From positions 9,796,001 through 9,860,000 of the forward strand of contig OX597815.1 of the NCBI GenBank assembly GCA_951406725.2: a stretch of 64,000 nt of DNA, in the 5' to 3' direction. Shown one piece after another: positions 27,672-54,657 of this stretch. The stretch is from Octopus vulgaris. Taxonomy: Eukaryota. The notes beneath the pieces are model-generated. The model saw only the letters and a program-made list of their open reading frames with translations. It searched no databases and was not told where the DNA came from. The stretch's first letter is position 1, and each line of letters opens with the position of its first letter. A program made the position numbers and the translations under genes.

Positions 27672-27865
27672 CAGGGGGAGAGTTCACAAAAAAAAACAAA
27701 AGACGAAGACAGGTGGTGTACAAAACAAACAGATGTATTAGTATAACGCTCAAGAATTGAAAAAGTATTTTACGTTTCAAGCCTATGCTCTTCTACAGAA
27801 AGGGACAGAAAAAAAACAAGGAGGGAAAAAAGGAGAGAACAAAAATGTATGTAGTGGCTATCGAT
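27672..27865 (-). mobile_element. Penelope-like pseudo-LTR fragment (a truncated relative is at ~26168-26246)
   Basis: Flanked by TA-rich microsatellites and carries a hammerhead variant. Shares aagacgaagacaggtggt...gatgtattagtataacgctca with 26195-26246. Confidence 0.55.
27767..27802 (-). ncRNA. Hammerhead variant with A6U core change (possibly inactive)
   Basis: Minus strand CUUU CUGUAGA A GAGC AUAG GCUU GAAA CG UA AAAU; same architecture as 41274 and 31499. Confidence 0.5.
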
Positions 27866-28815
27866 ACATATATACACACATATATACATACAATTATACA
27901 TATATATATATACATATATATATATACATATATACATTTACATCATGATCATCATCGTTTAATGTCTGCTTTCCATGCTAGCATGGGTTGGACAATTTGA
28001 CTGAGAGCTGATGAACCAAATGGCTGCACCAGGCTCCAGTCTTGATCTGGCAGAGTCTCTACAGCTGGATGCCCTTCCTAATGCTAACCACTCTAAGGGT
28101 GTAGTGGGTGCTTTTACGTGCCACTGGCACGGGGGCCAGTAAGGCGATGTTGGTAACGATCACAGTCAAATGGTGCCTATTACATGCCACCAGCACAGAA
28201 GCCAGATAGCCGCTCTGGCAACGATGACACTCGTATGGTGCTCTTTGCACCCTGCTAGCACGGACGCCAGTCATCGAATTTGATTTTGATTTTAATTTTG
28301 ATTTCACTTGCCTCAACAGGTCTTCGCAAGCAGAGTTTAGTGTCCAAAGAAGGAAAAGGTATGCACAAGTGGGCAGGTTACGGCCCCTGGCATAGGCCAC
28401 AGGTTATGGTCTCATTTGGCTTGCCGGGTCTTCTCACGCACGGCATATTTCCAAAAGTCTCAGTCACAAGTCATTTCCTTGATGAGGCCTATATACATAT
28501 ATACACACATATATATATATATATACATATATACGTATACATATATATATATACAGATATACATATACATATGTACATATCATACATAGATATGTTCATA
28601 CATACATGTATGTATGTATCTGTTGAGATCTACCTCTCAGTTTTTAACTACTAAATCGATTTTCACTCCCAAATCTTCAGTCAAACTAAGGCTGTGGCAA
28701 GAGGGTTTTTGCTCATAGGGTGGCATGGTAGGAGTGAACCAGAAATCATGAGATTCCAAGAAGAACATTTTAAACATATGCCATGTTGGCATTCAATATT
28801 TTGTAACAAGACCGT

Positions 28816-28851
<36 letters not shown>

Positions 28852-31353
28852 ATATGTGCGCGCATGTTTGTGTATGTATTAAAGAATACGTATATAGTGT
28901 AAATGGGTTGAAAGTATCTTCATAACATACACACACAAATGAATATTATTTTACATAACTCATGTTTACTTTTGTTGGCCGTCATTAAGCTGTTCAGATT
29001 TAGAAAATCTACTACAACAACAACAACAACAACAACAACAACAGCAGCAGTAACAAGGCAGAGAGGTTCAAAGACTCCAGCATTAGATAACTTGAAAGCT
29101 GAGAATCAAACAGTGTCACTAAGTGCACGGTTTCTTGTAAACTTGGTGTAACCTAACAAGAAAATCTGAATTAAAATCACTATCTGTGAACCAAGTAAAT
29201 AGTGAAACGAATACTAAAATATCCAGCGCCAAATAAATCAATAAAACTTAAGCTTCAGAACAGTTTTTTTTCTTTTTTTTTGACTATGAGATATTTTATT
29301 GGAATAAATAAATTAGTTGAGATAATCATAGCAAAATATACACCCAAGTTATCGACAGTGATAAATTCAGGGAACAGAAGGCAACGACATTAATTAATTG
29401 AATAATACGGTAGCAAAATCAATGCATATCTCACACTCTATAATAAAGCCTGCAGAATTATAACTGAGATCCAATAATTGAAAAATAATTTATTCAGATG
29501 GAATTTGACACACATTTTTTTTTGTTTTTTGTCTTTTTTTTATTATTTCCCTTTGTGGAATTTTTCGTTTTCTTTTAAAACATGTCAATGTAAAGAGCAA
29601 AAAATAGAATGTTAGATTGTTGTATTGTTTGTTTTCCTATGGAAGCATAAGCTAGATGGGTCTTCCATACAACACATGCTAGATTTGGCTGGACAAGTCT
29701 TCCATACAATATATACAAACTTGGGTTAGATGGGCTTCCATACTATACATACAAGCTTGGGTTAGATGGGGCTTCCATACAAGACAACACCAATCAAGTT
29801 GATCTTCAGTCATCTTTTCTGTGAGGCTGAGTATTCTATAATCTCATCTCACTATCTCTTCCTATAACTTTCCTTTCTTGGACTTTCTCTATCAACAGCA
29901 CCCACTATCATCCTTCACACACAATCCTATTTCTTTACTACCCACAAGGGGCCAAACATAGAGAGGACTAACAAGAACAGACAAACGGATTAAGTCGATT
30001 ATATCCACCCCAGTGCATAACTGGTACTTATTTAATCGACCCCGAAAGGATGATAGACAAAGTCGACTTCGGTGGAATTTGAACTCAGAACGTAGCGGCA
30101 GACGAAACACTTATTTCTTTACTACCCACAAGGGGCTAAATACAGAGAGCACAAACAAGGACAGACAAATGGATTAAGTCGATTACATCGACCCTAGTAC
30201 TCAACTGGTACTTAATTTATCGACCCCGAAAGGATGAAAGGCAAAGTCGACCTCGGCAGAATTTGAACTCAGAACGTAGCGGCAGACAAAATACCTATTT
30301 CTTTACTACCCACAAGGGGCTAAACACAGAGTAGACAAACAAGGACAGACAAATGGATTAAGTCGATTAGATCGACCCCAGTGCATCACTGGTACTTATT
30401 TAATCGACCCCAAAATGATAAAAGGCAAAGTCGACCTCGGCAGAATTTGAACTCAGAACATAGCGGCAAATTAAATCCCACTAGGCATTTCGCCCGGCTT
30501 ACATCACAAGTCCATACCTGCCAGTCACCAACATAATTCAACTGATACCTTTAACACTCATCACTCTCTCACCTCACTCCTACTCCACCTTTCATTTGAG
30601 CTAACTTCACACAGCCAACAGATTGTGCTCACTTCTATTTTATCCCATCCTCCACAGATTCCATACATTCACTACCTATGTTTCACTACCATGTGGTACC
30701 ACACAGACACACACACACACACACACCTAGTGGCTAGAGCGTTGCATTCATGATTACAAGATCGTGGTTTCAATTCCTAGACCAGGTGGTGCGCTGTGTT
30801 CTTGAGCAAAATACTTTGTTTCGCGTTGCTCTACGATGACTTCGACACCTGACATGCGTGGTACACCGTGCCCCTGTCCAGGCAACATCGATTTGATGGA
30901 GGGCGTGAGCTAATGTGCAGCACGAACATTTGATCACTATTATAAACAAATCATTTGTGTAGGTCACATTCGGCACAAAAGCTGAACACTCCTACATCGT
31001 CTTCAATGGGAGAGTCCATCATTACAAGAGTTCTTTTCAAAGATGAGGCAAATGCAGTTTAAGGGAGATTTGACAGCTGTTTCTAGGTCAAGCGACCATA
31101 TGAAGGCTCCCTTGTTAGCACATCCAGAAAACCTGCCACGTGTGTGTGTGTGTGTGTGTGAGTCCACTCTTTCATTCTTTTATTTGTTTCAGTCATTTGA
31201 CTGCAGCCATGCTAGAGCACCACCTTTAGTCGAACAAACCAACCCTAGTACTTATTCTATCAGTCCCTTTTGCTAAACTGCTAATTTATGGGGATGTAAA
31301 CACACCAACATCGGTTGTTAAGTGATGATGGGGAGACAAACACAAACAAACAA

Positions 31354-31395
<42 letters not shown>

Positions 31396-31398
<3 letters not shown>

Positions 31399-31602
31399 TA
31401 GTCCAAACATGAAAACACAAAGAGAAAACACAACAACACGAGGACTGGGAACAAGTATAGCGTTATTGGACGCTCAGGAAAGAAAAGAAAGAAGGAGGAT
31501 TTAACGTTTCGAGCGGAGTTCTTCATCAGAAACATAGGAAAAGGAAAGATCCAAAGAAGGGAAGACGGAAGAAAAAATTTGCCAACGATACACACGCGGT
31601 GA
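31396..31602 (-). mobile_element. Penelope-like pseudo-LTR fragment inserted in the internal (TA)n of a SINE
   Basis: Similar to 41172-41360 and carries a hammerhead. SINE halves lie at ~31165-31360 and ~31605-31720. Confidence 0.6.
31499..31533 (-). ncRNA. Minimal hammerhead variant, same family as 41274
   Basis: Minus strand GUUU CUGAUGA A GAAC UCC GCUC GAAA CG UU AAAU; one stem II mismatch; AACGUU palindrome. Confidence 0.65.
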
Positions 31603-32804
31603 CAGACTACTTTCAGTTTCTGAGGCTATAGAAGAAGACACTTGCCCAAGGTGCCACGCAGTGGGACTGAAGCCAGAACCATTTGGTTGGTAAGCAAGCT
31701 ATTTACCACACAGCCACTCAGTTTTTTGCTTGATACAACATTAGTAATGCTGTCAAAAATCCAACGTAACCACTTGACAAATACAAACAGATAAAGTAAA
31801 ACCAAAACTGAAAAAAACAAATGCTAGGGTACTTGGATGATATCAACACAAACACTTAGGGGTAGTTCCCCAGTCCAATGATTGCAGTCCGATGATAACG
31901 ATTGGTGAGAGAATAAAAGGAAAGCATTAGAAATGTCAAGTCACCAAATTCTTGCGGTACTTGTGGTGCTACACTTCCTGGCAACAATGTCTGCTAATTG
32001 ATAGCGATCCTTCCTTTATAACAACATTTAAACATTGTAAAGTAATAAAAAAAACAAAAAAAAACAGGTTAATTCTTTTTCTCTTTCCTCTTCCACCACC
32101 ACCACCACCACCACCACCACCACTACCACCATCATCATCATCATCATCATTATTATAGTCAGCGCCGCCACCGCTTGAAGAATATTAAGGAAGCCAACGC
32201 AAGTGAGAGGTGTCAACTATTTCAGCCAGCCAATAAGATGACATCTGAATTTTATGTATTTTATGTATTTATTTCTGTTATTATTATTATTATTATTGTA
32301 ATTTTTTTTTATTTTGTTGCTTGTATAATTATTGTTGTTGCTTTTTGTCAGCCTTAGACAGAACAAAATGACTACACACAACCAAACCCATACACACACA
32401 CACATACACACACAATCAAGCATACATTCCTTCCCACGTGTGCATCCATACACAGCGATCCACACACGTCATCCATATACACATGCACACACACACAATC
32501 ATTCATTCACAACATCCATTCCTCTGAATTATGGAAGATTAAAAGATGCTGTTATCTTTGGGTTTTTTTTTTTTTGTCTTCTTTTGCAAAATTTCTAAAC
32601 AATGAGTTTTGTAACAGGATAAAAAAAAAATAACAACAACTACAACATCAACATCAATTGTGGCAACAACAACAATAATAATTACAATATTGTTCTAGTA
32701 CAAAGTTAATCTCCTTCAAATAAACCAAGGTTTTCTTAATTCCTCTCTAAATCCCATTTTATTGTTACTTGCAGGCAAAAACCTTTCAGTTTATTAAGTA
32801 TCAT

Positions 32805-32810
32805 CATCAG

Positions 32811-32849
<39 letters not shown>

Positions 32850-32893
32850 CATTATTATCATCATTATTATTATTATCATTATTATTATCATCA

Positions 32894-32931
<38 letters not shown>

Positions 32932-33033
32932 CATTATTATTATTGATATTATTATCATCATCATCATCATCGTTATTATTATTATTATTATTATTGCTAT
33001 TGTTGTTGTTGTTGTTGGGGGAGGAGTAAGGCA

Positions 33034-33098
<65 letters not shown>

Positions 33099-33225
33099 AG
33101 GTTGAGAGAGTGCAGCACATTTTTGGAGCTTTTGTAACAGAGAAATAATTAAAGGTTGTTTTTGAAGTGAAATAGTAATAATAATAATGATAATAGTAGT
33201 AATAATAATAATAATGATAATAATA

Positions 33226-33263
<38 letters not shown>

Positions 33264-33336
33264 GATGATAATAATAATAATGATAATAATAATAATAATA
33301 ATAATAATGATAATAATAATAATAATAATAATGATG

Positions 33337-33389
<53 letters not shown>

Positions 33390-33524
33390 GAGGAGGAGGA
33401 GGAGGAGGCAGTAACAAAATGAAAGAAAGACCAAGTATTGAAGAAGAAAAAGAGGGAAAAAAAATACAGAAATGGGAAAGAAAGATGAAAGGCAAAAGAA
33501 GGACATTGAAAAGGGAGAAAGAAT

Positions 33525-33563
<39 letters not shown>

Positions 33564-33970
33564 CGAGAGAGTAAGAAGGAAGAGGAAGGAAAAAGAGGGG
33601 AAAGTAAGAGAGAAAGAAAGAAAGAAAAAAAGAAAAACAAAAAACAAAGAAAAGAAACATCACAACTGCAATAAAGAGAGAAAGAGAGAGAGAGACAGAG
33701 AGAGAGAGGCAGAGAGAAAGAGACAGAGAGAGGGACAGAGAGAGAGAGACAGAGACGGAGACACAGAGACAGAGAGAGAGAGACAGAGAGAGAGAGAGAC
33801 AGAGAGAGAGACAGAGAGAGAGAGACAGAGAGAGAGACAGAGAGAGAGACAGAGAGCGGCAGAGAGAAAAAGAGACAGAGAGAGAGACAGAGAGAAAGAG
33901 AGACAGAGACAGAGAGAGAAAGAGACGCAGAGAGAGATTGAATGAGGGAAAAAGAGAGAGAGAGAGATAG
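32805..33970. repeat. Simple-repeat block: (ATT)n, (GA)n, (AAT)n, (GA/GACA)n
   Basis: Direct reading. Confidence 0.9.
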
Positions 33971-34799
33971 AATGGGAAATAGGGGGATGGGGGGGGGTCA
34001 GAGGAGAAAGTGAGAAATGAAAAGAAAAATGTTTCTTCCTCTAAAAATTTTAAGCTCCATTTCTGTGGAACTGTAAGGTAAATATATATATATACATACA
34101 TACATAAGCAGTGCCTAGTATAAGTATGGCGTTGTATGGTGTTGTATGGTAATGCAAACTAATGTGTGGTACAGCATGTAGTAGTACACTCTATAGAACT
34201 ATATAGTAAGTAATACAAGGCAATGTATGGTGGTGTATGATACACTGAAGAAATGAAATTGAAATATTGTTTCTGAAAGAAATTCTAAAGATATTTAATA
34301 TAGGACAGTAGAAGTAAGCTAATGGCTTTCATTGTTTTCAATATTTTGTCTTAGAATGAACTGCAAAACATATTGTGTGTGTATTCATACAGGAAAGTAT
34401 GTTTCTGTGTGTACGATTATGCCTATATAAGTATGTAAGTATGTGCGTGCAAACTCGTTGTGTGCGTATGTAAGATAAGAAATAAGTACATCAGTGGATG
34501 GCTATATATATATAAGTGCATATTTCTTTCATTCGTTAACTTTCCAATATTTATCGCGCTTTTATACGAGATTAATAATTAATGTTACTCTGACTCTTAT
34601 ACTTGTTTCGGTCATTGGACTGCGGCCATGCTGGAGCACCGCCTTTAGTCGAGCAAATCGACCCCAGGACTTATTCTTTGTAAGCCCAGTACTTATTCTA
34701 TTGGCTCCCTTTTGCCGAACCGCTAAGTTACGGGGACGTAAACACACCAGCATCGGTTGTCAAGCGATGTTGGGGGAACAAACACAGACACACAAACAT

Positions 34800-34872
<73 letters not shown>

Positions 34873-35398
34873 TACGATGGGCTTCTTTCAGTTTCCGTCT
34901 ACCAAATCCACTCACAAGGCTTTGGTCGGCCCGAGGCTATAGTAGAAGACACTTGCGCAAGGTGCCACGCAGTGGGACTGAACCCGGAATTATATGGCTG
35001 GCAAGCAAGCTACTTACCACACAGCCACTCCTACACCTATATTATTTGATATATTTTATACATATGTTCACACACACAAATATTTTCCATACAGAACCAC
35101 ACACACACACACACACACACACAAATATTTCCCATAGAGAACCACACACATACATTTACACATAAATATACACACACACACACATACAAATTCTCCCACG
35201 CAAAAACCACACAGGTATTCACTCACAAAGCCACACACTGACATTGTTCTAAATAACCACACCCTCACATTCATACTGCTCCAGACATACCATCATACAA
35301 ACAATTACCCATGCAAAAAACCATGCACATACACACGCACACACTAATCTACACAAAATCACATTTACACACACACAATACCATGCACATATTCATTT

Positions 35399-35434
<36 letters not shown>

Positions 35435-35877
35435 AAGTCTGGTATAGTTAGTGGATAGACTGAAATAACAAGCTAAACTCTGTTCTATTAAGCACATGAT
35501 ATTAGTGTTTTCTATTTCCCATGGAACACCAAACAAATAAGCATGCCTACTCAAAATGATGCCAATTCCTCAAGAGTAATGGTTATCCTGGCTAACATAT
35601 AGAACTGCCTTATCTTCACTGCTGATGCCTCTTTGGTCAATCCAACATATCTTGCTGATACCCCAGGATATCTGACCAAATTGTAGGAAGTCATCTCTCG
35701 TGTCTCTTGTTTCAGTTGTCCACTTCAAGAAAAGTGCAGACATCCCAGATAACCAGGTTGTCACTTTTGTGATGTCCCTGACATAGAATATCTGGCTTGT
35801 CAGGAGTACCAACCTCATCGTCAAGGAGACCCAGTCTCCGTACAACACTGTTAATGAATGATTGAATTTATTTATAA

Positions 35878-36268
35878 CTAGTAGTATCGCCCGACGTTGC
35901 TCGGGCTTGTTTCGACCCTTTAGAATTGGAATTTTTGAAAAGTAAAAACTTTGCATTATGTAGCTTGTTATTCTCTTTAAGTGAACATTTTTCTGGTTGA
36001 AATACACCAAAAAATGTCGACACAGCAGTCAAAAAATCGTAAAAAATAGGGATTTTCATAGAAAAAAAGCACCTTTTTGATGTAAATAATTTTTGGTGTT
36101 AACATGGTCCGATTTGAATTTTTTCTCCTACGGAAGGAAGAGCAAGCCTTCTTCTATCATACTCTCAATTTTGGTCAACTTGCGTCGCTGGGTTTGGAGG
36201 CGATAGTGTTAGTTGAAGGCTACCAAACCTGCCATACACAGACAACTTCAGCTTTATGTACAGAGAGA
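35878..36268 (-). mobile_element. Non-autonomous Helitron
   Basis: 3' end CCCGAGCAACGTCGGGCGATACTACTAG|T; 5' TCTCTGTACATAAAG-like start. Confidence 0.7.
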
Positions 36269-36491
36269 CTGCTGTAGCAATTTGAATACTGGAGGTAAGG
36301 TTGCTGGCCATACACATCATCCCACCTCCTTTCTCAGCTTGGTTACCATCCCAGAATTTTGAAGCTAAAGGCAGTGTGCCTGAAGTCAGTTGAACCTGGG
36401 TCTCATGCAAGACCAGGTCATCATACGCCATGACAATGGCTGAGATAACCACCTACTATGCAATATATGGTACAGGACACTTTAAATGGTT

Positions 36492-36690
36492 ATAATAATA
36501 ATAATAATGAAATTATTGTATGCATTGCTCCAACAACTAACAACTGATGCCGGCAGTTTGTTCCATGCTTCAGCAACTCTCAGCATGAAAAAATTTTTCT
36601 GAAAGTTATGGAAGGAGCTGTGCTGTTTTCTGACTTTGTAAACATGTCCACGGGTGTTAGACAGGTGGAAACCAACTGTTAAGAATGGAA
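36492..36690 (-). mobile_element. CR1-type LINE 3' fragment, same family as 59655, UTR deleted
   Basis: SNTRGHVYKVRKQ...FFMLRVAEAWNKLPASVVSC followed almost directly by the (ATT)n tail. Confidence 0.75.
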
Positions 36691-38500
36691 AAGGCTCTAA
36701 ATGATAAATAATCAACCACACCATATTCTTTTAAGTATATTGTATAGGAGGCTTTAAGTTGTCAAGATGTAAGTATTGCCATCATGAAACTAGTAGAATA
36801 AAAGTTAAACACACTTGCTTACACAATCATACACCCCACCCCATACAAACACACATGTGTGTGTGTGTGTATATGAGTTTGTGTGTATAGGTATATGTGG
36901 GGTACTGGTGGTGAAACAAATCAAGGCGGCGAGCTGGCAGAATCGTTAGCACGCCAGGTGAAATGCGTAGCCGTATTTCGTCAGCTGTTACGTTCTGGGT
37001 TCAAATTCTGCCGAGGTCGACTTTGCCTTTCATCCTTTCGGGGTCGATTAAATAAGTACCAGTACCACACTGAGGTCGATGTAATCGACTTAATCCGTGT
37101 GTCTGACCTTGTTTGTCCCCTCTGTATTTAGCCCCTTGTGGGTAGTAAAGAAATAGGTATTTCGTCTGCCGCTACGTTCTGAGTTCAAATTCTGCCGAGG
37201 TCGACTTTGCCTTTCATCTTTTCGGGATTGATTAAATAAGTACCAGTTACGTGCTGGGGTCAATATAATCGACTTAATCCGTTTGTCTGTCCTTGTTTGT
37301 CCCTTCTGTGCTTAGCCCCTTGTGGGTAGTAAAGAAATAGGTATACGTGTGGTGTGTGGATGCATGTTAGGGCATAATGTATATGTATACTTATGTGCAT
37401 GTATATGTGTATGATGTGTGTTATAAACAGTGTATGTGTGTGTGTGTATGTGCCTGTGCATGTGGATCTGTGTGTGTAAGCATGCGTGTCAGTCTGTGAG
37501 TCACTGCAGATTTAAGCATGTGCTTACATCAGTTTATGTAAATGCATGGTGTGTGCATGTACGTGTATGTGCATGTATATGTATGTATTTTGTTCAGTCA
37601 ATAAGGTTTACTCTCATCCAAAACTGACCTCCCTCGTCTCGTAATACCATAATGGCTGATCACAACTGCAAGTAGATTAGTATTTAAAGAGATTTCAATA
37701 TTGATGATGATGATAGTAAGGAGACTGATGATGATAATGATGATGATAAGGATGATGGTGATAGTAATGGGGTCAGCAGAGGGTGGTTGCGATAGTGGTG
37801 GTGAAATAAATGAAGCAAGATTGAAATCCAATACAATATTATTAACCAAGGATAAAATCCCACACATCGGGTCAGTTATGTTAGACTCAGCAAGTGTTAG
37901 TTAAAAAGGACCAAGCCAAGATCAGTTACAATAGAGCAGATAGACCAGGCAAAGGTCAGTTACATCAGACCATGCTAAGGTGAGACTTAATAAAATTACA
38001 GGAAAGGAAGGGTTAATATGAAGTCTCCACAAGTCATCATCATTATCATCATCATCATCATTGTTTAATGTCCATTTTCCATGCTAGCATGGGTTGGACG
38101 ATTTGATTGAGGTCTGGCGAACCAGATGGCTGCACCAGGCTCCAATCTTGATCTGGCAGAGTTCCTACAGCTGGATGCCCTTCCTAACGCCAAACACTCC
38201 GAGAGTGTAGTGGGTGCTTTTACGTTCCACTGTCACAAGGGCCAGTCAGGCGGTACTGGCAACGGCCATGCTCAAATGGTGTTTTTTACATGCCACCTGC
38301 ACAGGACCCAGACCAGCGGCACTGGCAACGACCTCACTCGAATGTTTTTTCATGTGCGAGTAGGGCGACGCTGGTAACGATCACGCTTGAATGGAGGTTT
38401 TTACGTGCCACCGGCATGGAAGCCAGTTAGCTGCTCTGGCAACGATCATGCTCGGATGGTGCACTTAGCGCCCCACTAGCACGGATGCCAGTCATCGAAT

Positions 38501-39744: not shown

Positions 39745-40946
39745 CGGGCTTCTTTCAGTTTCCGTCTACCAAATCCACTCACAAGGCTTTGGTCGGCCTG
39801 AGGCTATAGTAGAAGACACTTGCCCAAGATGCCACGCAGTGGGACTGAACCCGGAACCATGTGCTTGGTAAACAAGCTACTTAGCACATTTTGTTTTTTT
39901 TTTAAACTAAGCTAATTTATTTATTGGCAGAGTGATCAAAGCCAGAGATATATTCCAGTGGCCTAGCATCACGCATACACCTCAGTGCATTCACAGAATA
40001 CTCCATACATAACCATACATTTCAGACACATACACAGAGACTTCTCTTTCACACAATTTGTTCATTCCTTCATTTATATGTCCATTTTTCCATGTTAGCA
40101 AGGTTAAATGAATAGGCGGTGAGCTGGCAGAAACGTTAGCATGCCGGGCGAAATGCGTGGCCGTATTTCGTCTGCCGCTACGTTCTGAGTTCAAATTCCA
40201 CCGAGGTCGACTTTGCCTTTCATCCCTTCAGGGGTCAATAAATTAAGTACCAGTTACACACTGGGGTTGATGTAATCGACTTAATCCATTTTTCTGTCCT
40301 TGTTTGTCCTCTCTGTGTTTAGCCCTTTGTGGGTAGTAAAGAAAAAGGTATTTTGTCTGCTGCTACGTTCTGAGTTCAAATTCTGCCAAGGTCGACTTTG
40401 TCTTTCATCCTTTCAGGGGTTGATAAATTAAGTACCAGTTACGCACTGGGGTCGATATAATCGACTTAATCCATTTGTCTGTCCATGCTTGTCCTCTCTG
40501 TGTTTAGCCCCTTGTGGGTAGTAAAAAAATAGGTTAAACGAATATATTATTGAGGAATTCTTATACAACCAGATGCACTTTCTGTTGCTGACCCATACCG
40601 ATTTCTCAAATAAAGGATGATATCCTATTCCACAACCCTTCGAAGGCACAAAGCCAACAGATGAACTATTGAGAAGGAAAATGACAAATTTTGGAAAAGT
40701 GCAAATGTAAACACACACAGAGTAGGCCCTTTCAGTTTCTCTCCGCAGAATCCTTTCCGAGGTTTTGGTTGGCCAAGGGATATATTAGAAGACACCTACC
40801 CAAGGTGCCACAGAATAGGAGTGAACCTGAAAACATGTATCTGGGAAGTGAACTTTTTAACCATGCTTATACGATGTATATATTACAGACATGGATTGCT
40901 AACATTTGGCAGGGGGTGGGGTAAATCAGGAGTAAGTTTAGATAGC

Positions 40947-41112: not shown

Positions 41113-41273
41113 CCCATGCTAGCATGAAGAACGGACGTTAAACGATGATGATGATGATGATATATATATATAGTAAATCAAAAAAACAAAGAACAAATAC
41201 AAAAAAAAACAACAACGGGAGGACGTGGTACATGCAAAGTATTAGCAGATGCTCAAGGAAGGAAAGAAAGGTG

Positions 41274-41309
41274 GTTTTACGTTTCGAGCAGACACTCTTC
41301 TTCAGAAAC
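41274..41309 (-). ncRNA. Minimal hammerhead variant (extra A after CUGANGA, palindromic ACGU stem III)
   Basis: Minus strand GUUU CUGAAGA A GAGU GUCU GCUC GAAA CG UA AAAC, within a purine-rich Penelope-like fragment (~41172-41360) following (TA)n. Confidence 0.75.
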
Positions 41310-41639
41310 AGGAGACAGAGGAAAGTCCAAGAGAAAAGGAAGACGGAGGGGGAAAAAAAAACATATGTATGTATGTATCTGTATATATGTGTGCATGCAT
41401 GTATGAAAGTCTATATATGAATGTGTGGTGTGGTGTGTGTGTGTGTGTGTGTGTACATACAAGCACACGTTTTAGGCAATTTGCTTGCCTTAAGAAATAT
41501 TTTTCTTCAGATTTTTTTCATAAATAATTATATGATAAAATGTAATAATTAAGTATATAATCCTTTTCACAAAGTAGTAATTAGGATAATTCAATAAAAT
41601 ATGATAATGATATAATCAATATAATATTAAACTTAACAG

Positions 41640-42616: not shown

Positions 42617-43640
42617 ATCATCATCATCATCATCATCATTTAGCGTCCGTTTTCCATGCTAGCATGGGTTGGACGGTTCTGCTGGGGTCTGTGAAGCCAG
42701 AAGGCTTCATCAGGCCCAGTCAAATCTGGCAGTGTTTCTACGGCTGGATGCCCTTCCTAACGCCAACCACTCCGTGAGTGTAGTGGGTGCTTTTTACGTG
42801 CCACCCGCACTGGTGCCAGCCAGAGCTGGCAAACGGCCACGAACGGATGGTGTTTTTTATGTGCCACCGGCACGAGGGCCAGGCGAGGCTGGCAACGAAC
42901 ACGAAATGGGGCGGTGCTGGCAACGGTCGCGAAACGGAAGGTTCTCTTACATGCCACCGGCACTGGTAACACATCTGCAATTTCCATTGATCGATTTCCA
43001 TTGATCGATTTCGATTCTGATCCTCACTTGCCTCAATGGGTCTTCACAAGCAGAGTTTCGACATGCCACCGGCACTGGTAGCACATCCGCAATTTCCATT
43101 GATCGATTTCGATTCTGATCCTCACTTGCCTCAACACGTCTTCACAAGTAGAGTTTTGTGTCCCAAGAAGGGAAGGTATGCATACGTAGGCTGGCTCCAT
43201 CCCATGTAGAAGGCCACGGGTTGTGGACTCACTTGTCCTGCCGGGTCTTCTCGCGCACAGCACACTTCCAGAGGTCTCGGTCTCTAGTCATTTCCTCGGT
43301 GAGACCTAAAGTTCGAAGGTCGTGCTTCACCACCTCGTCCCAGGTTTTCCTGGGTCTGCCTCTTCCACAGGTTCCCTCAACCGCTAGGGTGTGGCACTTT
43401 TTCACACAACTATCTTCATCCATTCTCGCCACATGACCATACCAGCGCAAACGTCTCTCTTGCACACCACAACTGATGCTTCTTAGGTCCAGCTTTTCTC
43501 TCAAGGTACTTACACTCTGCCGAGTGTGAGTACTGGCATTACACATCCATCGGAGCATACTGGCTTCATTTCTAGCGAGCTTACGCATATCCTCAGCAGT
43601 CACGGCCCATGTTTCACTGCCATGTAGCATGGCTGTTCGT

Positions 43641-44737: not shown

Positions 44738-45063
44738 TAATAATAAATATTAGGGAATAAATCCAAATTTACAGGGAAAAAATCAGATTTAAGATTAAAT
44801 CCAATTTTATAGTAAAATATTATAAAATATTATTAGAGACAAAACCACTATTTTGCAAAACAAACAAGGAAAGACTTAATCAATACATAAAATTTTAATA
44901 AATAGTCAAAAAAACCGCCACTACAATCGTTTCTTGTCTTGATCGACAATCTTCAGGTGGACTTCAATAAGTCAGTTTCAAATTATTAAAATTTTATGTA
45001 TTGATTAAGTCTTTCCTTGTTTGTTTTGCAAAATAGTGGTTTTGTCTCTAATAATATTTTATA
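44738..45063 (-). mobile_element. Penelope-like insertion with inverted partial pseudo-LTR
   Basis: 81-bp perfect inverted repeat (44821-44901 / 44983-45063) enclosing a hammerhead, with (TA)n on both sides. Confidence 0.65.
44918..44960 (-). ncRNA. Minimal type I hammerhead ribozyme motif inside an 81-bp perfect inverted repeat
   Basis: Minus strand CCAC CUGAAGA UUGUC GAUCAA GACAA GAAA CGAUUG UA GUGG: 4-bp stem I, 5-bp stem II, near-palindromic stem III (ACGAUUGU), GUA triplet. Confidence 0.8.
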
Positions 45064-45492: not shown

Positions 45493-45879
45493 TCTCTCTC
45501 TATATAAACGGCAGTTTGTCTGTGCGTGTTTCTGTGTGTCTGTTTGCTTGTACCCTCACCCTGACCACGGCTTTCAACCGATTCTGATGAAACTTGACAC
45601 ACACATAGCCCAATATCATAATTCAAAACTAACGCAGCGAAAATTTTGAAAAGTTCCCCCAGTTCTGAAAAAAATTGATAAATTCGACATGGGGTCGAGA
45701 ATAAAAAAAAAAAAACCACAGACTGTCTAGGGGACGCAACTCAACCTTTTTTTACTCTCAAAAAAAAATTTACCATCATTTTTCTTCCATTTTTTTGCTA
45801 TTTTTTGGCTATAACTCTCTAAAAATGCTTTATAGTTATTTCCCTTACAAACCTGAGCAACGCCGGGCGATACTGCTAG
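45493..45879 (+). mobile_element. Non-autonomous Helitron
   Basis: A|TCTCTCTCTATATAAA start; ends CCTGAGCAACGCCGGGCGATACTGCTAG|T. Confidence 0.8.
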
Positions 45880-46552
45880 TACTGAATATATGTTTTTGTA
45901 TACATGCAGGTTTATATGTATATATGTGTGTATATACTTATCACACTAATCTCTCTCTCTCTCTCTTTTCTATATTTCTAGTTTTGTTCTTTATTCTCCC
46001 CTCCAACAATCTACAGGACCCTTGATCACAAACTATATATAAACACTGCATCCACATATAAATTTTATTATTATTTGATTCTCTTTCTGAAGAATCTCTA
46101 AAAGATGTCTTTACATGTTTCTCCTACATGTACAATTCTATAACTCCCATTAGCAAACGAAACATGTGTAATGGTGAATAAATAATACCAAAAATTTTAT
46201 CCAATCTCCTCCTGTTTTCACATATAACTACACTGCAGAAAACATTTTCCAGAATTTTCAACTTTTATGTATACACCACTCAAATATATATTTCTTTATT
46301 GCCCACAGGGGGCTAAACATAGAGGGGACTGACAAGGACAAATGGATTAAGACGATTACATCAACCCCAGTACATAACTGGTACTTATTTAATCGACCCT
46401 GAAAGGATGAAAGGCAAAGTCAACCTTGGCGGAATTTGAATGCCACACAAACATACTATCTACATACAACTGCGAAGTACTGGAATAAATAGATGTGCTT
46501 TAAGAGGACACAGCTTGGATTAACCCTATCTACATTATATATATATATATAT

Positions 46553-46861
46553 CACCATGATCACCATGACCGACCAGGCTATCAGATGTTGCTACACATC
46601 GCTGGTCGCAATGCGCTTTGCACTGTTTTAGCCTTCAAATGACGCCACCCTGCTGGCTAAGTGAGCAGGCCAACAGAAGAAAGAGTGAGAGAAAGTTGTG
46701 GCGAAAGAGTACAGCAGGGGTCGGCACCACCCCCTGCCAGAGCCTCGTGAAGCTTTAGGTGTTTTCGCTCAATAAACACTCACAACGCCTGGTCTGGGAA
46801 TCGAAACCACGATCCCATGACTGCGAGTCCGCTACCCTAACCACTGGGCCATTGCGCCTCT
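46553..46861 (-). mobile_element. tRNA-derived SINE family 4 (5' part also at 2074-2226 +)
   Basis: gaggcgcaatggcccagtggttagggtagcggactcgcagtc...ggtttcgattccc head; (catggtgat)-like tail. Confidence 0.75.
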
Positions 46862-49240
46862 ATATATATATATTAATTACATTGTTGCTAACACAATGTT
46901 TCATTATACATGCTGACATTACATTACAGATACTGAAACATTACATTATATATTCTGGCACAGCATTTAATTACATGTGCTGATACAACATTGCATTATC
47001 AATGATGACATTACATTAGAGACGCTGACATAATATTTCATTATACGCACATACACAATATTTCTATCAGCTTTCTAAGATATTGATGTTTGGCCCCTAC
47101 AACACCCCACACTGAACAAGTCTATTATTAAAAACATTCCAGTCTTTTAATCAGATATTATGCATCTAAACAAAGAATTGTGAATTGAGAATGGTTTGGC
47201 AGCTATTTCTGGCAATTTGAAAAAGTGTTCAGAAGCTCCCTTGTTGCTTTAAGTAGATGCTTATGGTATGTGAATTTTCCAAGAGGTCACCCATCTAAGT
47301 TTGGCATTGTCATACTTCAGTGATGACACAAAGAAACTGTTTTTGGTGTGATTATAGTCATAAGTTGGACCTGTCTACAATTGCTTTCATTCATCTTCAG
47401 CAGCTACAGATTAGAACTTGAGACTTTATTCGATTTAATAAATCAAATCAAATCAAAATCAAAACCATTTCGATGACTGGCATCCGTGCTAGCGGGGTGC
47501 AAAGAGCACCATACGAGCGTGATCATTGACAGAGCGGCTATTCAAGTATGATCGTTACCAGCGTCGCCTTACTGGCATTTATGCCTGTGCTAGTAGGGTG
47601 CCAAGAACACCATCTGAGTGGGATCGTTGCCAGAGCAGCCAACTGGCTTCCATACCCGTGACACGTAAAAGTGCACCGTTCGAGCGTGATCGTCACCAAT
47701 GTCGCTTCACTGGCACCTGTGTCGGTGGCACATGTAAAAAGATTCGAGCGAGGTTATTGCCAGTACCACCTGACTGGCCCCCATGCAGGTGTCACATAAA
47801 AAGCACCCACTACACACTCGGAGTGGTTGGCGTTAGGAAGGGCATCCAGCTGTAGAAACTCTGCCAGATCAAGATTGGAGCCTGGTGCAGCCATCTGGTT
47901 TGCCAGCCCTCAGTCAAAACCGTCTGACCCATGCTAGCATGGAAAGTGGACGTTAAACGATGATGATGATGATGATGATGATATTGACTGGTGGGTACAA
48001 GGGATTCTGGGTATTGTGATAAGGCTGTGTAATGACAACAGGACAATAAATAAGAGATAAACTAGAAGTGTGAACATTTTAAAATTAAACAGATAATCCA
48101 GGAAGTTTCAGCAATATCATGCATGCCACCAGAATTAACAAATTACATTAGACTGTCCTAAATCGAATGATGTAGTCTAAGATGCATTATGTCAGGTAAC
48201 CAGGTCAGGGTTGGCCAATGACTAAATAACATAAAACAGTTACAGTCATAAATACTAACAAGTATGTAAATTACATTGTCCTATTTACACTATGTTGCAA
48301 TAAAAGATAGTCTGGTCACAGCTGAGACATCTCTGACCAGGATCATGCAGGATCAGAAAGATTATCTGGGATTAAACAAAAACAAGTTTGAGAAGATAAA
48401 AAAAAATATATATATACATAGGCGCAGGAGTGGCTGTGTGGTAAGTAGCTTGTTTACCAACCATATGGTTCCGGGTTCAGTCCCACTGCGTGGCACCTTG
48501 GGCAAGTGTCTTCTATTATAGCCTTGAGCCAACCAAAGCCTTGTGAGTGGATTTGGTGGACGGAAACTGAAAGAAGCCCGTCGTATATATGTATATATAT
48601 ATATATATATGTATGTATGTGTGTGTATATGTTTGTGTATCTGCGTTTGTTCCCCCAACATTGCTTGACAATCGATGCTGGTGTGTTTACGTCCTCGTAA
48701 CTTAGCGGTTCGGCAAAAGAGACTGATAGAATAAGTACTGGGCTTACAAAGAATAAGTCCTGGAGTCAATTTGCTCGACTAAAGGCGGTGCTCCAGCTTG
48801 GCCGGAGTCACATGACTGTAAAAAGTAAGAGTAAAAGTAATACATATTCTATTATTTTATCACTTGTTTCAGTCATTTGATTGCGGCCATGCTGGTGCAC
48901 CATCTTAAAGGGTTTAAGTAGCAGAAATCGACCCCAGGACTTATTCTTTGTGAGCCTAGTACTTATTTTATCATTCTCTTTTGCTGAATTGTTAAGTTAC
49001 AGAAATGTAAAGAAACCAACATCGGTTGTCAAGTGTGAGGGGACATTCACAGACACAATGACACACATAAACATATACATATGATGGGCTTCTTTCAGTT
49101 TCGGTCTAGTAAATCCACTCACAAGGTTTTGGTCATCCCAGGACAATAGTAGAAGGCATTTGCCCATGGTGCCATGCAGTGGGACTGAACCTAGAACCAC
49201 GTGTCAGGAAGCAAGCTACCATACAGCCACGCCTGCACCA

Positions 49241-49282
<42 letters not shown>

Positions 49283-49644
49283 TTGAGGATTAACACAAAA
49301 ACAAACATACACAACTACACACAGTAGTTAACAGTTCAACCTAAATAGTAAGCCCAGATCTTATCCACATATCTTTACTATCACTGAGTTCAAGATGGTG
49401 TATCCAGAAGAGAAAGAAGAAAAGCTATGGGCAGCGCACCCTCCTTCTCTGCCTTCTATAAACACGAACAAATACTACCACAAATGTTGACTTTAATGTG
49501 TCCACAACAGCTGGCCACAAAAGTAGTCAACTTATTTGAGATAAATTCTTTGATTATATTTTTCTGTTTTTTTTTTTGATTTTTCAATTCAATAATGACC
49601 TATAAAACTAAATCTATGTAGTTACACACAACACAGATATACGT

Positions 49645-49683
<39 letters not shown>

Positions 49684-49824
49684 TATAAATTAGGGTATCT
49701 ACAAGATACCACCATGCTGAAAATAGCAGCCATGATCTAACTCTAAAACTACCTTAATTGCCCATATATCAACAGGGAGAGAAAACGAAGGGACAAGATG
49801 AAACTATTAAAAAATTACTGGATA

Positions 49825-49883
49825 ATTCTAGATCCCGGATTTCTGGATTAGCATTTGGGAATACTTTGCCTCGTCAGTAGAAT
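49825..49883 (-). ncRNA. Type I hammerhead ribozyme motif, irregular stem II
   Basis: Minus strand AUUCUA CUGACGA GGCAAAGUAUUCCCAAAUGCUAAUCCA GAAA UCCGGGA UC UAGAAU: 6-bp stem I, intact boxes, near-palindromic stem III, AUC triplet. Stem II has an inner AGUAUU/AAUGCU hairpin but a weak base. Confidence 0.7.
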
Positions 49884-49976
49884 ACACACAGAAGGGAAAC
49901 ATAAATACATATATATATAAGCACAACATACGAATACTTACATATACGAACATATACCTACATATATATGCACGTA

Positions 49977-50011
<35 letters not shown>

Positions 50012-50289
50012 TAAAAACGGTAAGATAACAAAAGAAAGAAAGAGACCTCAATATTATATAAAAACAGGAATTTATCTGTAAATGTAATATGTGACAATTA
50101 TTCGGTAGGCAAGATAGAACTCTGAGTTTCAGATACTGAGAGAGATGGTGTTGTGGATTTCCACCTCGGCATCCAAAACTCAGAGTTTTATCTTGGCTAT
50201 TGAATATTATACCACCAAATGAATACAGACACAAACCACAATCACAAAATAACATTATTTTACAGATATATATATATATATATATATAT

Positions 50290-50327
<38 letters not shown>

Positions 50328-51712
50328 GGATGGATGGATGGATGGATGGATGGATGGATGGATGGATGGATGGATGGATGGATGGATGGATGGATGGATG
50401 GATGGATGGATGGATGGATGGATGGAAGGAAGGAAGGAAGGAAGGAAGGAAGGAAGGCAGGAAGGAAGGAAATATTGGAGAGTTGCTATATCAAATAGTA
50501 AAGAAACAGAGAAATTAGTTTCGTCTTCATGAGAATAAAAACCATTAACTTTGCCTGTTCTACTATCTTTGGACTTAATTTTCACTGTACTTTGTTTACA
50601 AAAATGGAAAGTGTTCTTACTAAACAACCTGCACAACAAATTTGCTTCTAGTGGAGTAAGTTGTACAGAGCCTACTCTCCCCTCTCTCCTAATTAAGTCA
50701 CCTGAATTGGTGGTACACAGTATGTCACATACCAGACATAAAATGATTCATGCAAGAGAAGGAGTCAGGAATGCAAAACTCAAACTGACGTCAATCTGCT
50801 TTGGGGTCACAGTCTACATCACACCAAACACATCACCAAATGAATTCAGACACAAACCACAATCACAGGATAACATATGTAACCATCAGCTACCATAGTT
50901 GAGATTTTAGAAACGGGTTTACCTCTGTAGAGGACATAGGACTCAACTTTCTATGAGATACTTTCCTAAGCATTTTTTGTGCCAGTGGCACGTAAAATGC
51001 ACCATCCGTACGTGGCCTATGCCAGCGCCGCCTTGACTGGCTTCCGTGCCGGTGGTACGTAAAAAGCACCAACCAATTGTGGCCATTGCCAGCCTCCCCT
51101 GGTACCTGTGCCGGTGGCACGTAAAAAGAACCCACTACACTCACGGAGTGGTTGGCGTTAGGAAGGTCATCCAGCTTTAGAAACACTGCCAGATCAGACT
51201 GGAGCCTGGTGCAGCCTCCTGGCTTCCCAGATCCCAGGTTGAACCGTCCAACCCATGCCAGCATGGAAAACGGACGTTAAACGATGACGATGATGATGAT
51301 GTACGCTGAATATTGCTAGATAGTCATTGGCCCTATATTGAGTTCATTCATCCTTTTAACAGGCTTTGTTTCTATCTTACAAGGTTTCAGTCCACAGACT
51401 ATGTACAACAGCAACCTCCCACATTAATCCATTGGCAATCATCTTATTTAGTTACTCTCAGGGCTGTGGAGTCAGTGACCACTGATTCCAATTCCAACTC
51501 CTCTTTTTGTAACAAGATTCATCATACTTTTGTATTAAATAAATTCACACAACATAAAGGACCAATGAGAATAACCAGGCTATTTCCAAGTACCCCATAA
51601 TGTTAAAGGTTTAGGCTTGAATTTTACAGTTCTATTGTTGTGGCTTTTTTATAATATTTATTACGGAAATTGAATATATATTTTACTATAAAGTAAAAAG
51701 ACATAACAGAAA

Positions 51713-52108
51713 TCTTTATATATAAAAGTCTAGTTGTGTGTCTGTCTCCTACGATTTAAATTCCTAACTACTCCCACATTTTGCGGTGCAGTTTAACCAA
51801 AACTCGGTATCTTATAGTCGTGATTCATATCGAGCCCTTCTGGGTATTAGCGCGCATCTACGATGAGTCTACGATTAAAAAAAAATTTACCATCATTTTT
51901 TTCCATTTTAATGCATTTTTTCGCTATTATATAAGGGAAGTAACTCTCTAAAAATGTCTACGATGAGCCAACGATTTTTAAAAAATTTACCATAATTTTT
52001 TTTCCATTTTTAATGCATTTTTTTGCTATTTTTTGGCTATAACTCTCTAAAAATGTTTATATAGTTATTTCCCTTACAAACCCGAGCAACGCCGGGCGAT
52101 ACTGCTAG
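51713..52108 (+). mobile_element. Non-autonomous Helitron
   Basis: A|TCTTTATATATAAAA start; ends CCCGAGCAACGCCGGGCGATACTGCTAG|T; 5' half matches 1057-1561. Confidence 0.85.
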
Positions 52109-53070
52109 TGAATAATAAAAGTATGCTAAAAGAAAATCAGGAATCTCTTAGTTTATCAGTTTGAAAATTTGGAGTACATCAAAGTAAAAGCCAAAAGATT
52201 TAACACCTAAAGTACTTTTTTAAAAAATGGTCCTTTTAAAAGAAATGCAACCCTTAAATATAAAACATTTCCTTTTCGAGATTAAAGCATTATTTGAATA
52301 TAAAACTGAAGTGAATGCAACATGAAAGATTGCATTACATGAAACAGGAATTAATTATATTGTAAGATATTGAAAAGCTAATCCCAACAAAATTTATTAA
52401 ATAAAAGCTATACTGACAGAATAAGGATTAGATCAAAAATACTTATTCAAAATTTATCAAACGCTTTGCCTTTAGAAACAGAACTGCTTCTAATAGAACC
52501 TCTTTTGTAGAAACCCTTAAATCTTATTTGATTATTTTTCAGTGCAGAAAGTAATCAAATTAATATCTGTCAAATTGGCAGGCATTTTTAACCCAATATA
52601 TTACAAGTTGTTATTTATAGCTGTATGCATTTCTAATATACACTGTTGAAATGATTTATTTCCATATTTCTTGAGGCAGCTATATTCTAAATGAAACAGA
52701 CTTGCTTTCCAGATTCTAAGAAGAAACTGTGTGCAATTTGATGGCAGAGGGACTGATAGTGACTTTAGTGTAATTGGTTAGCACACCTGTCATGGATACA
52801 GAAGATAGGTGATTTCATTTTACCTGTAGCCTTTGGCTTTTTTTACTATCAGATTTTCTTCTTCCTGTCAGTTCGTTTATTTTAGATTAAAATCTGCACA
52901 GTGAATATAAAATATTTTGGTCTATGAATACTTAGACATAAACCCCAAAACCAACGAAATATTTCATTATATAATGTGTGCACCAACAGAAGAACTCTAT
53001 ACACAAACACACACACATAAGTACAACACTTAGATGCAAATGATGTCATTTATAAGTGTTACTTACTTAC

Positions 53071-53101
<31 letters not shown>

Positions 53102-53977
53102 CATACATACATACATACATACATACATACATACATGCATGCATGCATGCATGCATAACAATATAGACAAGATTTAAACACAAAGATATTCATACCAAAA
53201 ACTAGAGGCACATGCGCATAAACACATAGACTTATAAAAATGAATGTCATACACAGATTAACACACAATTGAACAATTTCTTTACAGTAAGAAATGCTAG
53301 AACTTTTTAAAGAATCTTATGTAATTTCATGATTTATGAAAGAAATTTAATTTAAACAGATCTCTGTCTCTCTTCCTTGCTCTTTCACTTACTAATTATA
53401 TTGTACCATTTATCAACATGCATGCATACACACACACACACACACACACAAACACATATTCATCATCATCATCATCATCGTTTAACGTCTGTTTTCCATG
53501 CTAGCATGGGTTGGACGGTTCGACCGGGGTCTGGGAAGCCGCCAGGAGGCTGCACCAGGCTCCAGTCTGATCTGGCGGTGTTTCTACAGCTGGATGCCCT
53601 TCCTAACGCCAACCACTCCATGGGTGTAGTGGGCGCTTTTTACGTGCCACCGGCACAGGTGCCAGGGGAAGTCGGCAACGGCCACGAGCGGTTGGTTGTT
53701 TTTACGTGCTACCGGCACGGAAGCCAGTCAAGGCGACACTGGCATATGTGCATATTTAGGGATGAAAAAATGATGCTCACTATTTGTCTTCTAACTTAGC
53801 AGTTCAACAAGCAGAGGTAAACAGGTACCAGAACTAAAAATAATTACTTGGGTCAGTGTTACCAAAAACCCTTCATGGTAGAGCCACAGCGGAGCCACAG
53901 TCCAAGGAGTGGAACAAGTAATAAAATAACAGAAAGAATTTATTCATGTGTGTAAATGAGTGTGTGTGTGTGTGTGT

Positions 53978-54151
53978 CAGAACCATTTTAGCAGCATTGT
54001 AGGCCCCTGGGTAAATCAATGCACTGGGCCCTATAGTATATATTTACTGAAAGTAAATCACAGTATATATAGATCGGAATTGGTCTCCAAGACCCTGTGA
54101 AGCCCTGCCGCAACTGACTGCCCAGTGCGCCCATGCCTTAAGATGGCATGT
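53978..54151. mobile_element. Degenerate non-autonomous DNA transposon (hAT-like MITE)
   Basis: Imperfect terminal inverted ends cagaaccatttta / taagatggcatg; GC-rich ggcccc/gggcc subterminal motifs. Confidence 0.35.
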
Positions 54152-54242
54152 GTGTGTGTCTGAAAGTGAGTATGTATAAACATGTCTATGTAAGTGGATG
54201 TAAATACATGCATATACATACATATATTTGGACACACACACA

Positions 54243-54280
<38 letters not shown>

Positions 54281-54284
<4 letters not shown>

Positions 54285-54505
54285 TGAGGAAAGGAGAGCA
54301 CAGCTGTGGTCGGACAGGCGGGACAGGAGGAGGACAACTGCAGCAACACCCCACACGTACCCATCGATGTTCGTGTGCAGCGACTGTACCAGGAACTGCC
54401 ACTCTAGAATTGGACTGTTCAGTCACAGCAGACGCTGCTCATCATCAAAGTAGGCCCCACCCTTGGCGCGACACATTGTCTATCAAGACAGACGGGAGAA
54501 GAAAG
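54281..54505 (+). mobile_element. 3' end of a second RTE-type LINE (C-terminal zinc-finger)
   Basis: FVCSDCTRNCHSRIGLFSHSRRC* followed by a short UTR; flanked by (TA)n. Confidence 0.75.
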
Positions 54506-54568
54506 AAAAGGAAATATATATATATATATATAAATGGAGTTTAACGTAGGTACAATTCAAATACTTTT

Positions 54569-54657
54569 ACTTCCGACACATATTTCGAAGATATCACTGA
54601 TATTATTCCAAAGGAATAAAATGGTGTAAGACAATGTAATCTTCTCTTCAGGGAAGT
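54569..54657 (-). ncRNA. Type I hammerhead ribozyme motif, canonical core, extended stem II (Penelope-like element remnant)
   Basis: Minus strand reads ACUUCC CUGAAGA GAAGAU[46-nt insert incl. UUAUUCC-UUU-GGAAUAA hairpin]AUCUUC GAAA UAUGUG UC GGAAGU. This gives a 6-bp stem I, CUGANGA and GAAA boxes, a 6-bp stem II with G10.1-C11.1, a tiny quasi-palindromic stem III and a GUC cleavage triplet. (TA)n at ~54515-54532. Confidence 0.85.

What the first reader, a model, noticed from the sequence alone, without database searches (positions are those of the whole stretch)
27767..54657. Set of co-oriented minimal hammerhead ribozymes from several unrelated Penelope-like families
Seen: six hammerhead-shaped motifs at 27767, 31499, 41274, 44918, 49825 and 54569. 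Each has CUGANGA (CUGUAGA in one), GAAA, an NUH triplet and a pairing stem I, and the helix sequences fall into at least four unrelated sets, so structure rather than sequence is shared. All lie on the minus strand with (TA)n just downstream, and all have a very short, (near-)palindromic stem III. Established: Penelope-like retroelements carry minimal type I hammerheads in their pseudo-LTRs, and such variants cleave as dimers through palindromic stem III. Inference: this genome hosts several (TA)n-targeting ribozyme-bearing retroelement families. No RT/GIY-YIG ORF is in the window, so the Penelope assignment is indirect.
Basis: partly seen in the sequence, partly recalled or inferred. Interest (0 to 1): 0.8.

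Follow-up and report, generated by a model that had tools for sequence, protein, structure and literature searches.

The report
Hammerhead-bearing ends of Penelope retroelements
The six self-cutting-RNA-shaped motifs are real and sit in short repeats beside TA microsatellites that are likely the truncated tail ends of Penelope-like jumping genes in a probably octopus genome, a known and ordinary kind of element whose cutting here is untested.

Summary
All six type I hammerhead-shaped motifs are at the stated places (strict descriptor: 3 hits against 0.01 in shuffles), each 43-183 nt upstream of (TA)n. H1-H3 are minimal (ACGU helix III); the same motif class lies downstream of Neptune-type Penelope ORFs in 16 of 113 metagenome loci. 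H4-H6 have 8-9 nt self-complementary helices III like published Hydra-clade Penelope hammerheads. H4 and H6 are very abundant repeats; H4 shows the inverted arm plus optional tail typical of Penelope insertions. Two corrections: co-orientation is not a property of the set, since a seventh motif lies on the plus strand (55346-55397; other copies have an intact core) with two weaker remnants; and a decayed GIY-YIG fragment resembling Hydra-1_Obim (compared by eye) lies upstream of it, so the Penelope link is partly direct. None of the six was tied to an ORF of its own family; cleavage is untested. Known kind (Cervera 2014; Craig 2021, octopus included). The scan noted the same on other octopus-like DNA before. 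One curiosity: H6 and the Hydra remnant are joined head to head in one TA-flanked island, possibly one insertion from two unrelated RNAs.

The parts
27672..27860 (-). H1 element: minimal hammerhead 27768-27801 with CUGUAGA core, 99-nt 3' tail to (TA)n
   Evidence: tail 94% like 26184-26247
26166..26246 (-). tail-only copy of the H1 subfamily, TA on both sides, no hammerhead
31395..31600 (-). H2 element: minimal hammerhead 31499-31533, stem II mismatch, 108-nt tail
   Evidence: 73% identical to H3 over 161 nt
41172..41362 (-). H3 element: intact minimal hammerhead 41274-41309, 106-nt tail
44745..44983 (-). H4 element: hammerhead 44918-44960, 3' arm 44822-44900 and optional tail 44745-44821; very abundant family
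44984..45062 (+). inverted 5'-truncated copy of the H4 3' arm, 79 of 79 identical, ends in (TA)n, lacks tail and hammerhead
49681..49908 (-). H5 element: hammerhead 49825-49883 with 4+1+4 palindromic helix III and imperfect stem II, 150-nt tail, TA-rich on both sides
54533..54780 (-). H6 element: hammerhead 54569-54657 with long stem II, 42-nt tail; abundant family whose cover ends near 54777
54781..55140 (+). decayed, internally deleted GIY-YIG endonuclease fragment resembling Hydra-1_Obim (NNHRYSFR at 54973, CPHQRKF at 55104), joined head to head to H6
   Evidence: by-eye comparison with text of Craig 2021 supplement
55338..55433 (+). seventh hammerhead (55346-55397), decayed in this copy, intact core in most other copies, 37 nt before (TA)n
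48329..48406 (+). probable hammerhead remnant (two core changes, 4+1+4 palindromic helix III), 38 nt before (TA)n
   Evidence: not checked in other copies
50009..50265 (.). TA-flanked head-to-head island with a degraded plus-strand hammerhead (about 50140-50190) and a partial inverted arm whose tail differs
   Evidence: weak

Best explanation
The six motifs are type I hammerhead-shaped sequences in short repeats that end at TA microsatellites, and these repeats are likely the 5'-truncated 3' ends (pseudo-LTR portions) of several Penelope-like retroelement families or of their non-coding dependants. Shown: the motifs, their TA adjacency, the repeat nature of H4, H6 and the seventh motif, the inverted arm with an optional tail at H4. 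Inferred from published work: a Penelope RT-GIY-YIG protein nicks TA-rich DNA on both strands, primes reverse transcription at a site 40-180 nt downstream of the hammerhead, and usually stops early, so that only the hammerhead-bearing end (sometimes with an inverted second arm) is inserted. In the parent tandem transcript two hammerheads would pair through the self-complementary helix III and cut slowly after GUA/GUU/GUC/AUC. The solitary genomic copies are likely inert relics: no partner lies nearby and several carry core or stem damage. H1-H3 are likely Neptune-type, H4-H6 and the plus-strand remnants likely Hydra-type; the strand of each copy is likely chance.
For: Motifs exceed shuffles. 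TA adjacency about 2e-5 if independent. H4: 79/79 inverted arm; in other genomes' contigs many different inversion joints, copies ending in TA at 44821 without the tail, summed depth about 1e6 against 34-46 for a single-copy contig, no variant of 10% or more inside the hammerhead while tail positions vary; this layout is described for Penelope elements (PMC3846280 passages; PMC8557442 passages). H6: other copies read C at 15.2 (54582), restoring C15.2-G16.2. Seventh motif: other copies restore the CUGAUGA core (55352), a stem II pair (55376) and helix III (55390), giving the helix III listed for Hydra-1_oBim; upstream lie two endonuclease motifs at the right order and spacing, 1 pair against 0 of 200 shuffles. 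H2/H3-type motif: 118 metagenome loci; Penelope protein matches upstream on the same strand in 16 of 113, downstream in 0 of 115; Pfam GIY-YIG in L020 and RVT_1 in L023. Both-strand nicking and internal priming shown in vitro for an anole element (PMC11167929).
Against: None of the six was linked to an ORF of its own family: no Penelope Pfam hit in 150 of 428 ORFs scanned, no tblastn hit of 48 Neptune-type proteins to the window, no BLASTN likeness between window motifs and the 118 loci, so the Neptune link is by motif class only, partly circular (queries came from L020) and some loci are duplicates. The Hydra match is by eye plus post hoc regexes; phmmer, the word search and the Atlas found no true relative of the fragment. 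H1, H2 and H5 are weak alone. Lack of variation in H4 gives no covariation, and mapping favours near-identical contigs. Predicted monomer folds of H1, H2, H3 do not form stem I (expected for minimal motifs but not proof of dimers). No cleavage or expression data.
Confidence: 0.82

Rival explanations
1. The abundant families (H4, H6, H1-H3) are monomers of non-LTR retrozymes: self-standing non-coding circular-RNA elements whose masters are tandem arrays elsewhere, only borrowing Penelope enzymes.
For: Short, ORF-less, very abundant; H1-H3 begin at a similar distance upstream of the core; a 2026 preprint argues animal retrozymes derive from pLTRs (abstract, introduction and part of methods read).
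Against: No motif lies in a tandem array; loose ends show H4 and H6 families continue upstream in other copies; inverted arm and tail are Penelope insertion marks. Not exclusive of the best reading.
Confidence: 0.12
2. The minus-strand bias is real: the window lies in a plus-strand transcript, and sense-oriented hammerheads are purged or decay faster.
For: The four best motifs are minus-strand and all three plus-strand remnants carry core changes.
Against: 6 of 9 gives p=0.51; minus-strand H1 and H2 are damaged too; no host exon was identified; solitary minimal motifs are reported not to cut (PMC4209133).
Confidence: 0.05
3. The motifs are chance look-alikes in low-complexity DNA.
For: Rfam scores below threshold or absent; H1 and H2 score within the shuffle range alone.
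Against: Shuffle tests, restoration of core and pairs in other copies, conserved distance to (TA)n.
Confidence: 0.01

Closest known systems
Minimal type I hammerheads (min-HHR) of metazoan Penelope-like elements, Cervera and de la Pena 2014, PMC4209133 (parts 1-2 of 4 read)
   Same: H1-H3: no loop III, palindromic 15.2-16.2, unpaired base between 9 and 10.1, G10.1-C11.1 (U in H1), mostly solitary copies, many families per genome.
   Different: Stems are short (I 3-4 bp, II 4 bp); H1 has A6U; no family-level ORF link here; octopus not seen in the parts read.
Hydra-clade Penelope-like elements, including Hydra-1_Obim of Octopus bimaculoides, Craig et al. 2021, PMC8557442 (passages; supplement parts 2, 52, 53 and search hits)
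   Same: (TA)n preference, hammerhead near the 3' end with 8-9 nt palindromic helix III and an extra base before GAA, short tail; the plus-strand element has the same order endonuclease, CxH end, UTR, hammerhead, tail, and the same helix III in other copies.
   Different: Hammerhead stems differ from Hydra-1_Obim, so a sister family; ORF here is a broken fragment; H4-H6 share the architecture only, with longer tails in H4 and H5 and a long stem II in H6.
Neptune-clade Penelope-like elements
   Same: The H2/H3 motif class lies downstream of C-terminal GIY-YIG ORFs with the CX2-5CxxC linker in other animals; microsatellite bias noted for Neptune.
   Different: No Neptune coding trace in the window.
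Metazoan non-LTR retrozymes (bioRxiv 10.64898/2026.07.22.740005, part 1 of 5; PMC7229834 listing only)
   Same: Non-coding type I hammerhead repeats tied to Penelope pLTRs.
   Different: Defined by tandem units each with a hammerhead; none here.

Membership tests
EN+ Penelope-like element | single ORF with RT and GIY-YIG endonuclease | tested here: not met
   For the six given copies: none. They are filed as derived ends, not as elements.
EN+ Penelope-like element | family of each motif extends into such an ORF elsewhere in the genome | not testable with these tools
   No whole genome held; loose ends give 30 letters only.
EN+ Penelope-like element | hammerhead close to the 3' end | tested here: met
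   43-183 nt from (TA)n.
EN+ Penelope-like element | head-to-head inverted 5'-truncated arm with optional tail | tested here: met
   H4 only; tail 77 nt rather than 30-40.
EN+ Penelope-like element | tandem pLTR-ORF-pLTR arrangement | tested here: not met
   Not in the window.
Hydra clade | C-terminal GIY-YIG with Hydra-type CxH end | tested here: inconclusive
   Fragment at 54781-55140 matches by eye (13 of 22 and 12 of 30 identical) and by regex; no computed alignment; applies to the seventh motif, not to H4-H6.
Hydra clade | canonical hammerhead with palindromic helix III; (TA)n preference | tested here: met
   H4-H6 and seventh motif.
Hydra clade | RT phylogeny, DKT and RWK motifs | not testable with these tools
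   No RT in the window.
Penelope min-HHR | CUGANGA and GAAA core with NUH | tested here: met
   H2-H6; H1 has A6U.
Penelope min-HHR | bulged base 9/10.1, G10.1-C11.1, palindromic 15.2-16.2, no loop III | tested here: met
   H2, H3 fully, H1 with G-U; not H4-H6, which have longer helix III.
Penelope min-HHR | covariation across copies | tested here: inconclusive
   Pairing kept across unrelated families; within families single-sided restorations only (40 of 135 rows shown); H4 invariant.
Penelope min-HHR | self-cleavage as dimer | not testable with these tools
   Bench assay needed.
Non-LTR retrozyme | tandem units each holding a type I hammerhead | tested here: not met
   No array covers a motif (150 of 153 rows shown).
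Non-LTR retrozyme | abundant circular RNA | not testable with these tools
   Only contigs of runs guessed to be RNA were available.

The most novel reading that the evidence does not exclude
The 901-nt TA-flanked island 54533-55433 is one insertion built from two unrelated RNAs: the H6 family on one strand and a Hydra-clade element on the other, joined head to head with no TA between them. Penelope inverted structures then arise by twin priming from two nicks onto two separate templates, not by fold-back self-priming, and families cross-mobilise; abundant short hammerhead families such as H4 and H6 would be parasites of these enzymes. The mismatched arms at 50009-50265 would be a second case.
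Probability: 0.3. Interest if true: 0.5.

Novelty: new member of a known kind. Interest (0 to 1): 0.2.

Why it matters
As it stands it adds family examples to a described class and shows how dense such ends are (6-9 in 64 kb); a 2026 Octopus vulgaris repeat annotation does not mention ribozyme or hammerhead in its main text, so hammerhead plus (TA)n could help classify unassigned octopus repeats. If mixed-family head-to-head islands prove common, they would make the open question of how Penelope inverted copies form testable from genomes alone.

Tried and rejected
No whole genome held. Whole-window Rfam swamped by microsatellite miRNA models. Pfam on 150 of 428 ORFs: only a mariner remnant; it also missed the endonuclease fragment, so it is insensitive here. 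Weak tblastn hits of a GIY-YIG piece to the 254-bp tandem repeat (E 0.01-0.16) vanished with 48 full proteins: rejected. Pattern scans of viral contigs and prokaryote genomes: 0 hits. Endonuclease fragment: word search none, Atlas below 0.9, phmmer gave 4 unrelated repeat proteins. Four 10-11-mers from H3-H6 in the Craig supplement: no relevant hit, so no identity with its Naiad or Hydra consensuses at those words; Naiad reading for H6 not supported. No RNA holder listed; contigs of guessed-RNA runs cover H4 and H6 but say nothing on expression. Candidates at 18581 (+) and 38963 (-) left as chance. No shared tail hairpin seen among 10 tails folded. Lunse et al. was not available; its content is taken from a review passage (PMC6765202). 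Earlier-scan look-ups by sequence and place were empty. Literature: five searches listed no paper devoted to octopus hammerheads beyond Craig 2021; none of the 11 papers listed holds both 'pLTR' and 'twin priming'. The supplement of PMC13282606 was listed, not read; repeat libraries (Repbase, Dfam) could not be seen and may already hold these families.
Full report
Observation. A strict type I descriptor returns H3, H4 and H6, against 0.01 per shuffle in 100 shuffles. A scored, relaxed scan ranks H6, H4, H5, H3 on top, with 5 hits at score 18 or more against 0.05 in 40 shuffles; H2 (15) and H1 (12) would not stand alone, but H2 is 73% identical to H3 over 161 nt and H1 matches H3 across the hammerhead. 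Both descriptors were written after seeing the motifs. Helix III is self-complementary in all six. A (TA)5+ array follows within 43-183 nt, where 17% of window positions have one within 190 nt. Rfam sees only H6, below threshold. There are four or five unrelated sets: H2/H3, H1 (own tail, shared at 94% with 26184-26247), H4, H5, H6.

Host. The window is probably octopod DNA. Basis: likeness of a coding remnant to Hydra-1_Obim (below); SINE and microsatellite make-up (my recall, no call); earlier AI notes on the same genome call it octopus (leads only). No whole genome was available.

H1-H3. These fit the minimal hammerhead of Cervera and de la Pena 2014 (parts 1-2 of 4 read): bulged base after the core, G10.1-C11.1, ACGU in place of helix III. 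A pattern built on H2/H3 found 118 loci in animal DNA within metagenomes. ORFs beside them include GIY-YIG (L020) and RT (L023); relatives of L020 are RT plus C-terminal GIY-YIG proteins with the CX2-5CxxC linker, near-identical to a row standing next to the Neptune rows in Craig Fig. S7 (row name cut off). With 48 of the 56 proteins as queries, matches lie upstream on the hammerhead's strand in 16 of 113 loci, upstream antisense in 3, and downstream in 0 of 115. This is motif-class evidence: the queries stem from L020, some loci are duplicates, and the window copies have no DNA likeness to those loci.

H4-H6. Their 8-9 nt palindromic helices III, and the extra base before GAA in H4 and H5, resemble the Hydra-clade table in Craig et al. 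2021, where nearly all families prefer (TA)n, Hydra-1_Obim included. H4 is held by runs of seven coded organisms, some only 5-6 million letters. Laid contigs give summed depth near 1e6 against 34-46 for a single-copy contig; the tool warns this is no copy number, so I read it only as very abundant. No variant of 10% or more lies in 44908-44963, while tail positions vary. Depth falls at and just upstream of the hammerhead, partly an edge effect of the inversion. Many different inversion joints occur, and some copies end in TA at 44821 without the 77-nt tail. In the window the inverted arm is 79 of 79 identical. Inverted 5'-truncated arm plus optional tail is the described Penelope layout (passages). 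H6 is abundant too (depth 0.5-3e5 over 54520-54775, about 1e3 beyond), and almost all other copies read the base that restores C15.2-G16.2. H5 was not checked in other copies.

The scored scan's fourth-to-fifth-ranked company includes a plus-strand motif at 55346-55397 (score 18.4), 37 nt before (TA)n. It is a lower-abundance repeat; in the two DNA-type runs most depth reads A at 55352, T at 55376, T at 55384 and C at 55390, which give an intact core, a longer stem II and the helix III listed for Hydra-1_oBim (40 of 135 variant rows shown). Upstream on the same strand, broken frames read NNHRYSFR (54973) and CPHQRKF (55104), preceded by a Ser/Asn/Thr-rich stretch. By eye these match the Hydra-1_Obim endonuclease (13 of 22 and 12 of 30 identical), with an internal deletion between them. 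Post hoc regexes find this pair once in the window and in 0 of 200 shuffles. Database searches did not recover a relative, so the match lacks a computed score. Two weaker plus-strand remnants lie at 48333-48368 and about 50140-50190. Strand bias is therefore not significant (p 0.125 for 6 of 7, 0.51 for 6 of 9).

Mechanism. Inferred from published work: the Penelope protein nicks AT-rich DNA on both strands and starts reverse transcription inside its RNA (shown in vitro for an anole element; PMC11167929, passages and part 1 of section 3). Early stops leave the 3' end with its hammerhead; priming from the second nick would give the inverted arm. In tandem transcripts the hammerheads would cut slowly as dimers; the same anole paper found cleavage not needed for insertion in vitro and no RNA ends at the cut site. 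The lone, partly damaged copies here are likely inert. Monomer folding supports stem I in H4-H6 (inner pair 0.5-0.6) but not in H1-H3.

Curiosity. H6 and the Hydra-like remnant fill one 901-nt island between TA arrays, joined at their 5' ends near 54781 with no TA between; a single-copy contig of two other runs spans the junction. One insertion from two templates would explain it, against the self-priming view in PMC3846280; two insertions followed by a deletion explain it as well. One locus cannot decide. An earlier AI note describes a similar case in another genome (unchecked; found after I had formed the idea).

Verdict. Real, well explained, known kind; the particular families may be unnamed, but repeat libraries could not be checked. 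Earlier scan notes reached the same reading on other octopus-like windows; they are not independent support. Interest 0.2.

Noticed in passing
window 62848-63949 (+): Decayed mariner transposase (Pfam HTH_48 and Transposase_1); a second mariner-like fragment seems to lie at 23713-24045 (by eye).
   Followed up: no
window 9755-12265: 254-bp tandem array of about 10 units, starting TTAACCC; looks like a tandemised MITE (recalled); weak GIY-YIG tblastn hits rejected.
   Followed up: partly
window 14124-15235, 1408-1807, 4503-5011, 29926-30468, 36973-37344, 40163-40534: Tandem arrays of 222, 199 and 184-185 bp; the 184-bp unit recurs in both orientations and looks like tandemly repeated SINE bodies (recalled); no hammerhead found in them by the scans.
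   Followed up: no
   Followed up: partly
window 43232-43600 (-), 54284-54450 (+), 55987-56439 (+), 61366-61674 (+): 3' fragments of LINE-like ORFs (RTE- and CR1-like by eye); no Pfam hit.
   Followed up: no
window 50009-50265: Head-to-head island whose two arms agree near the hammerhead but have different tails.
   Followed up: partly
L043:602-691: Two overlapping hammerhead matches on opposite strands, a head-to-head palindromic insertion in another animal.
   Followed up: no
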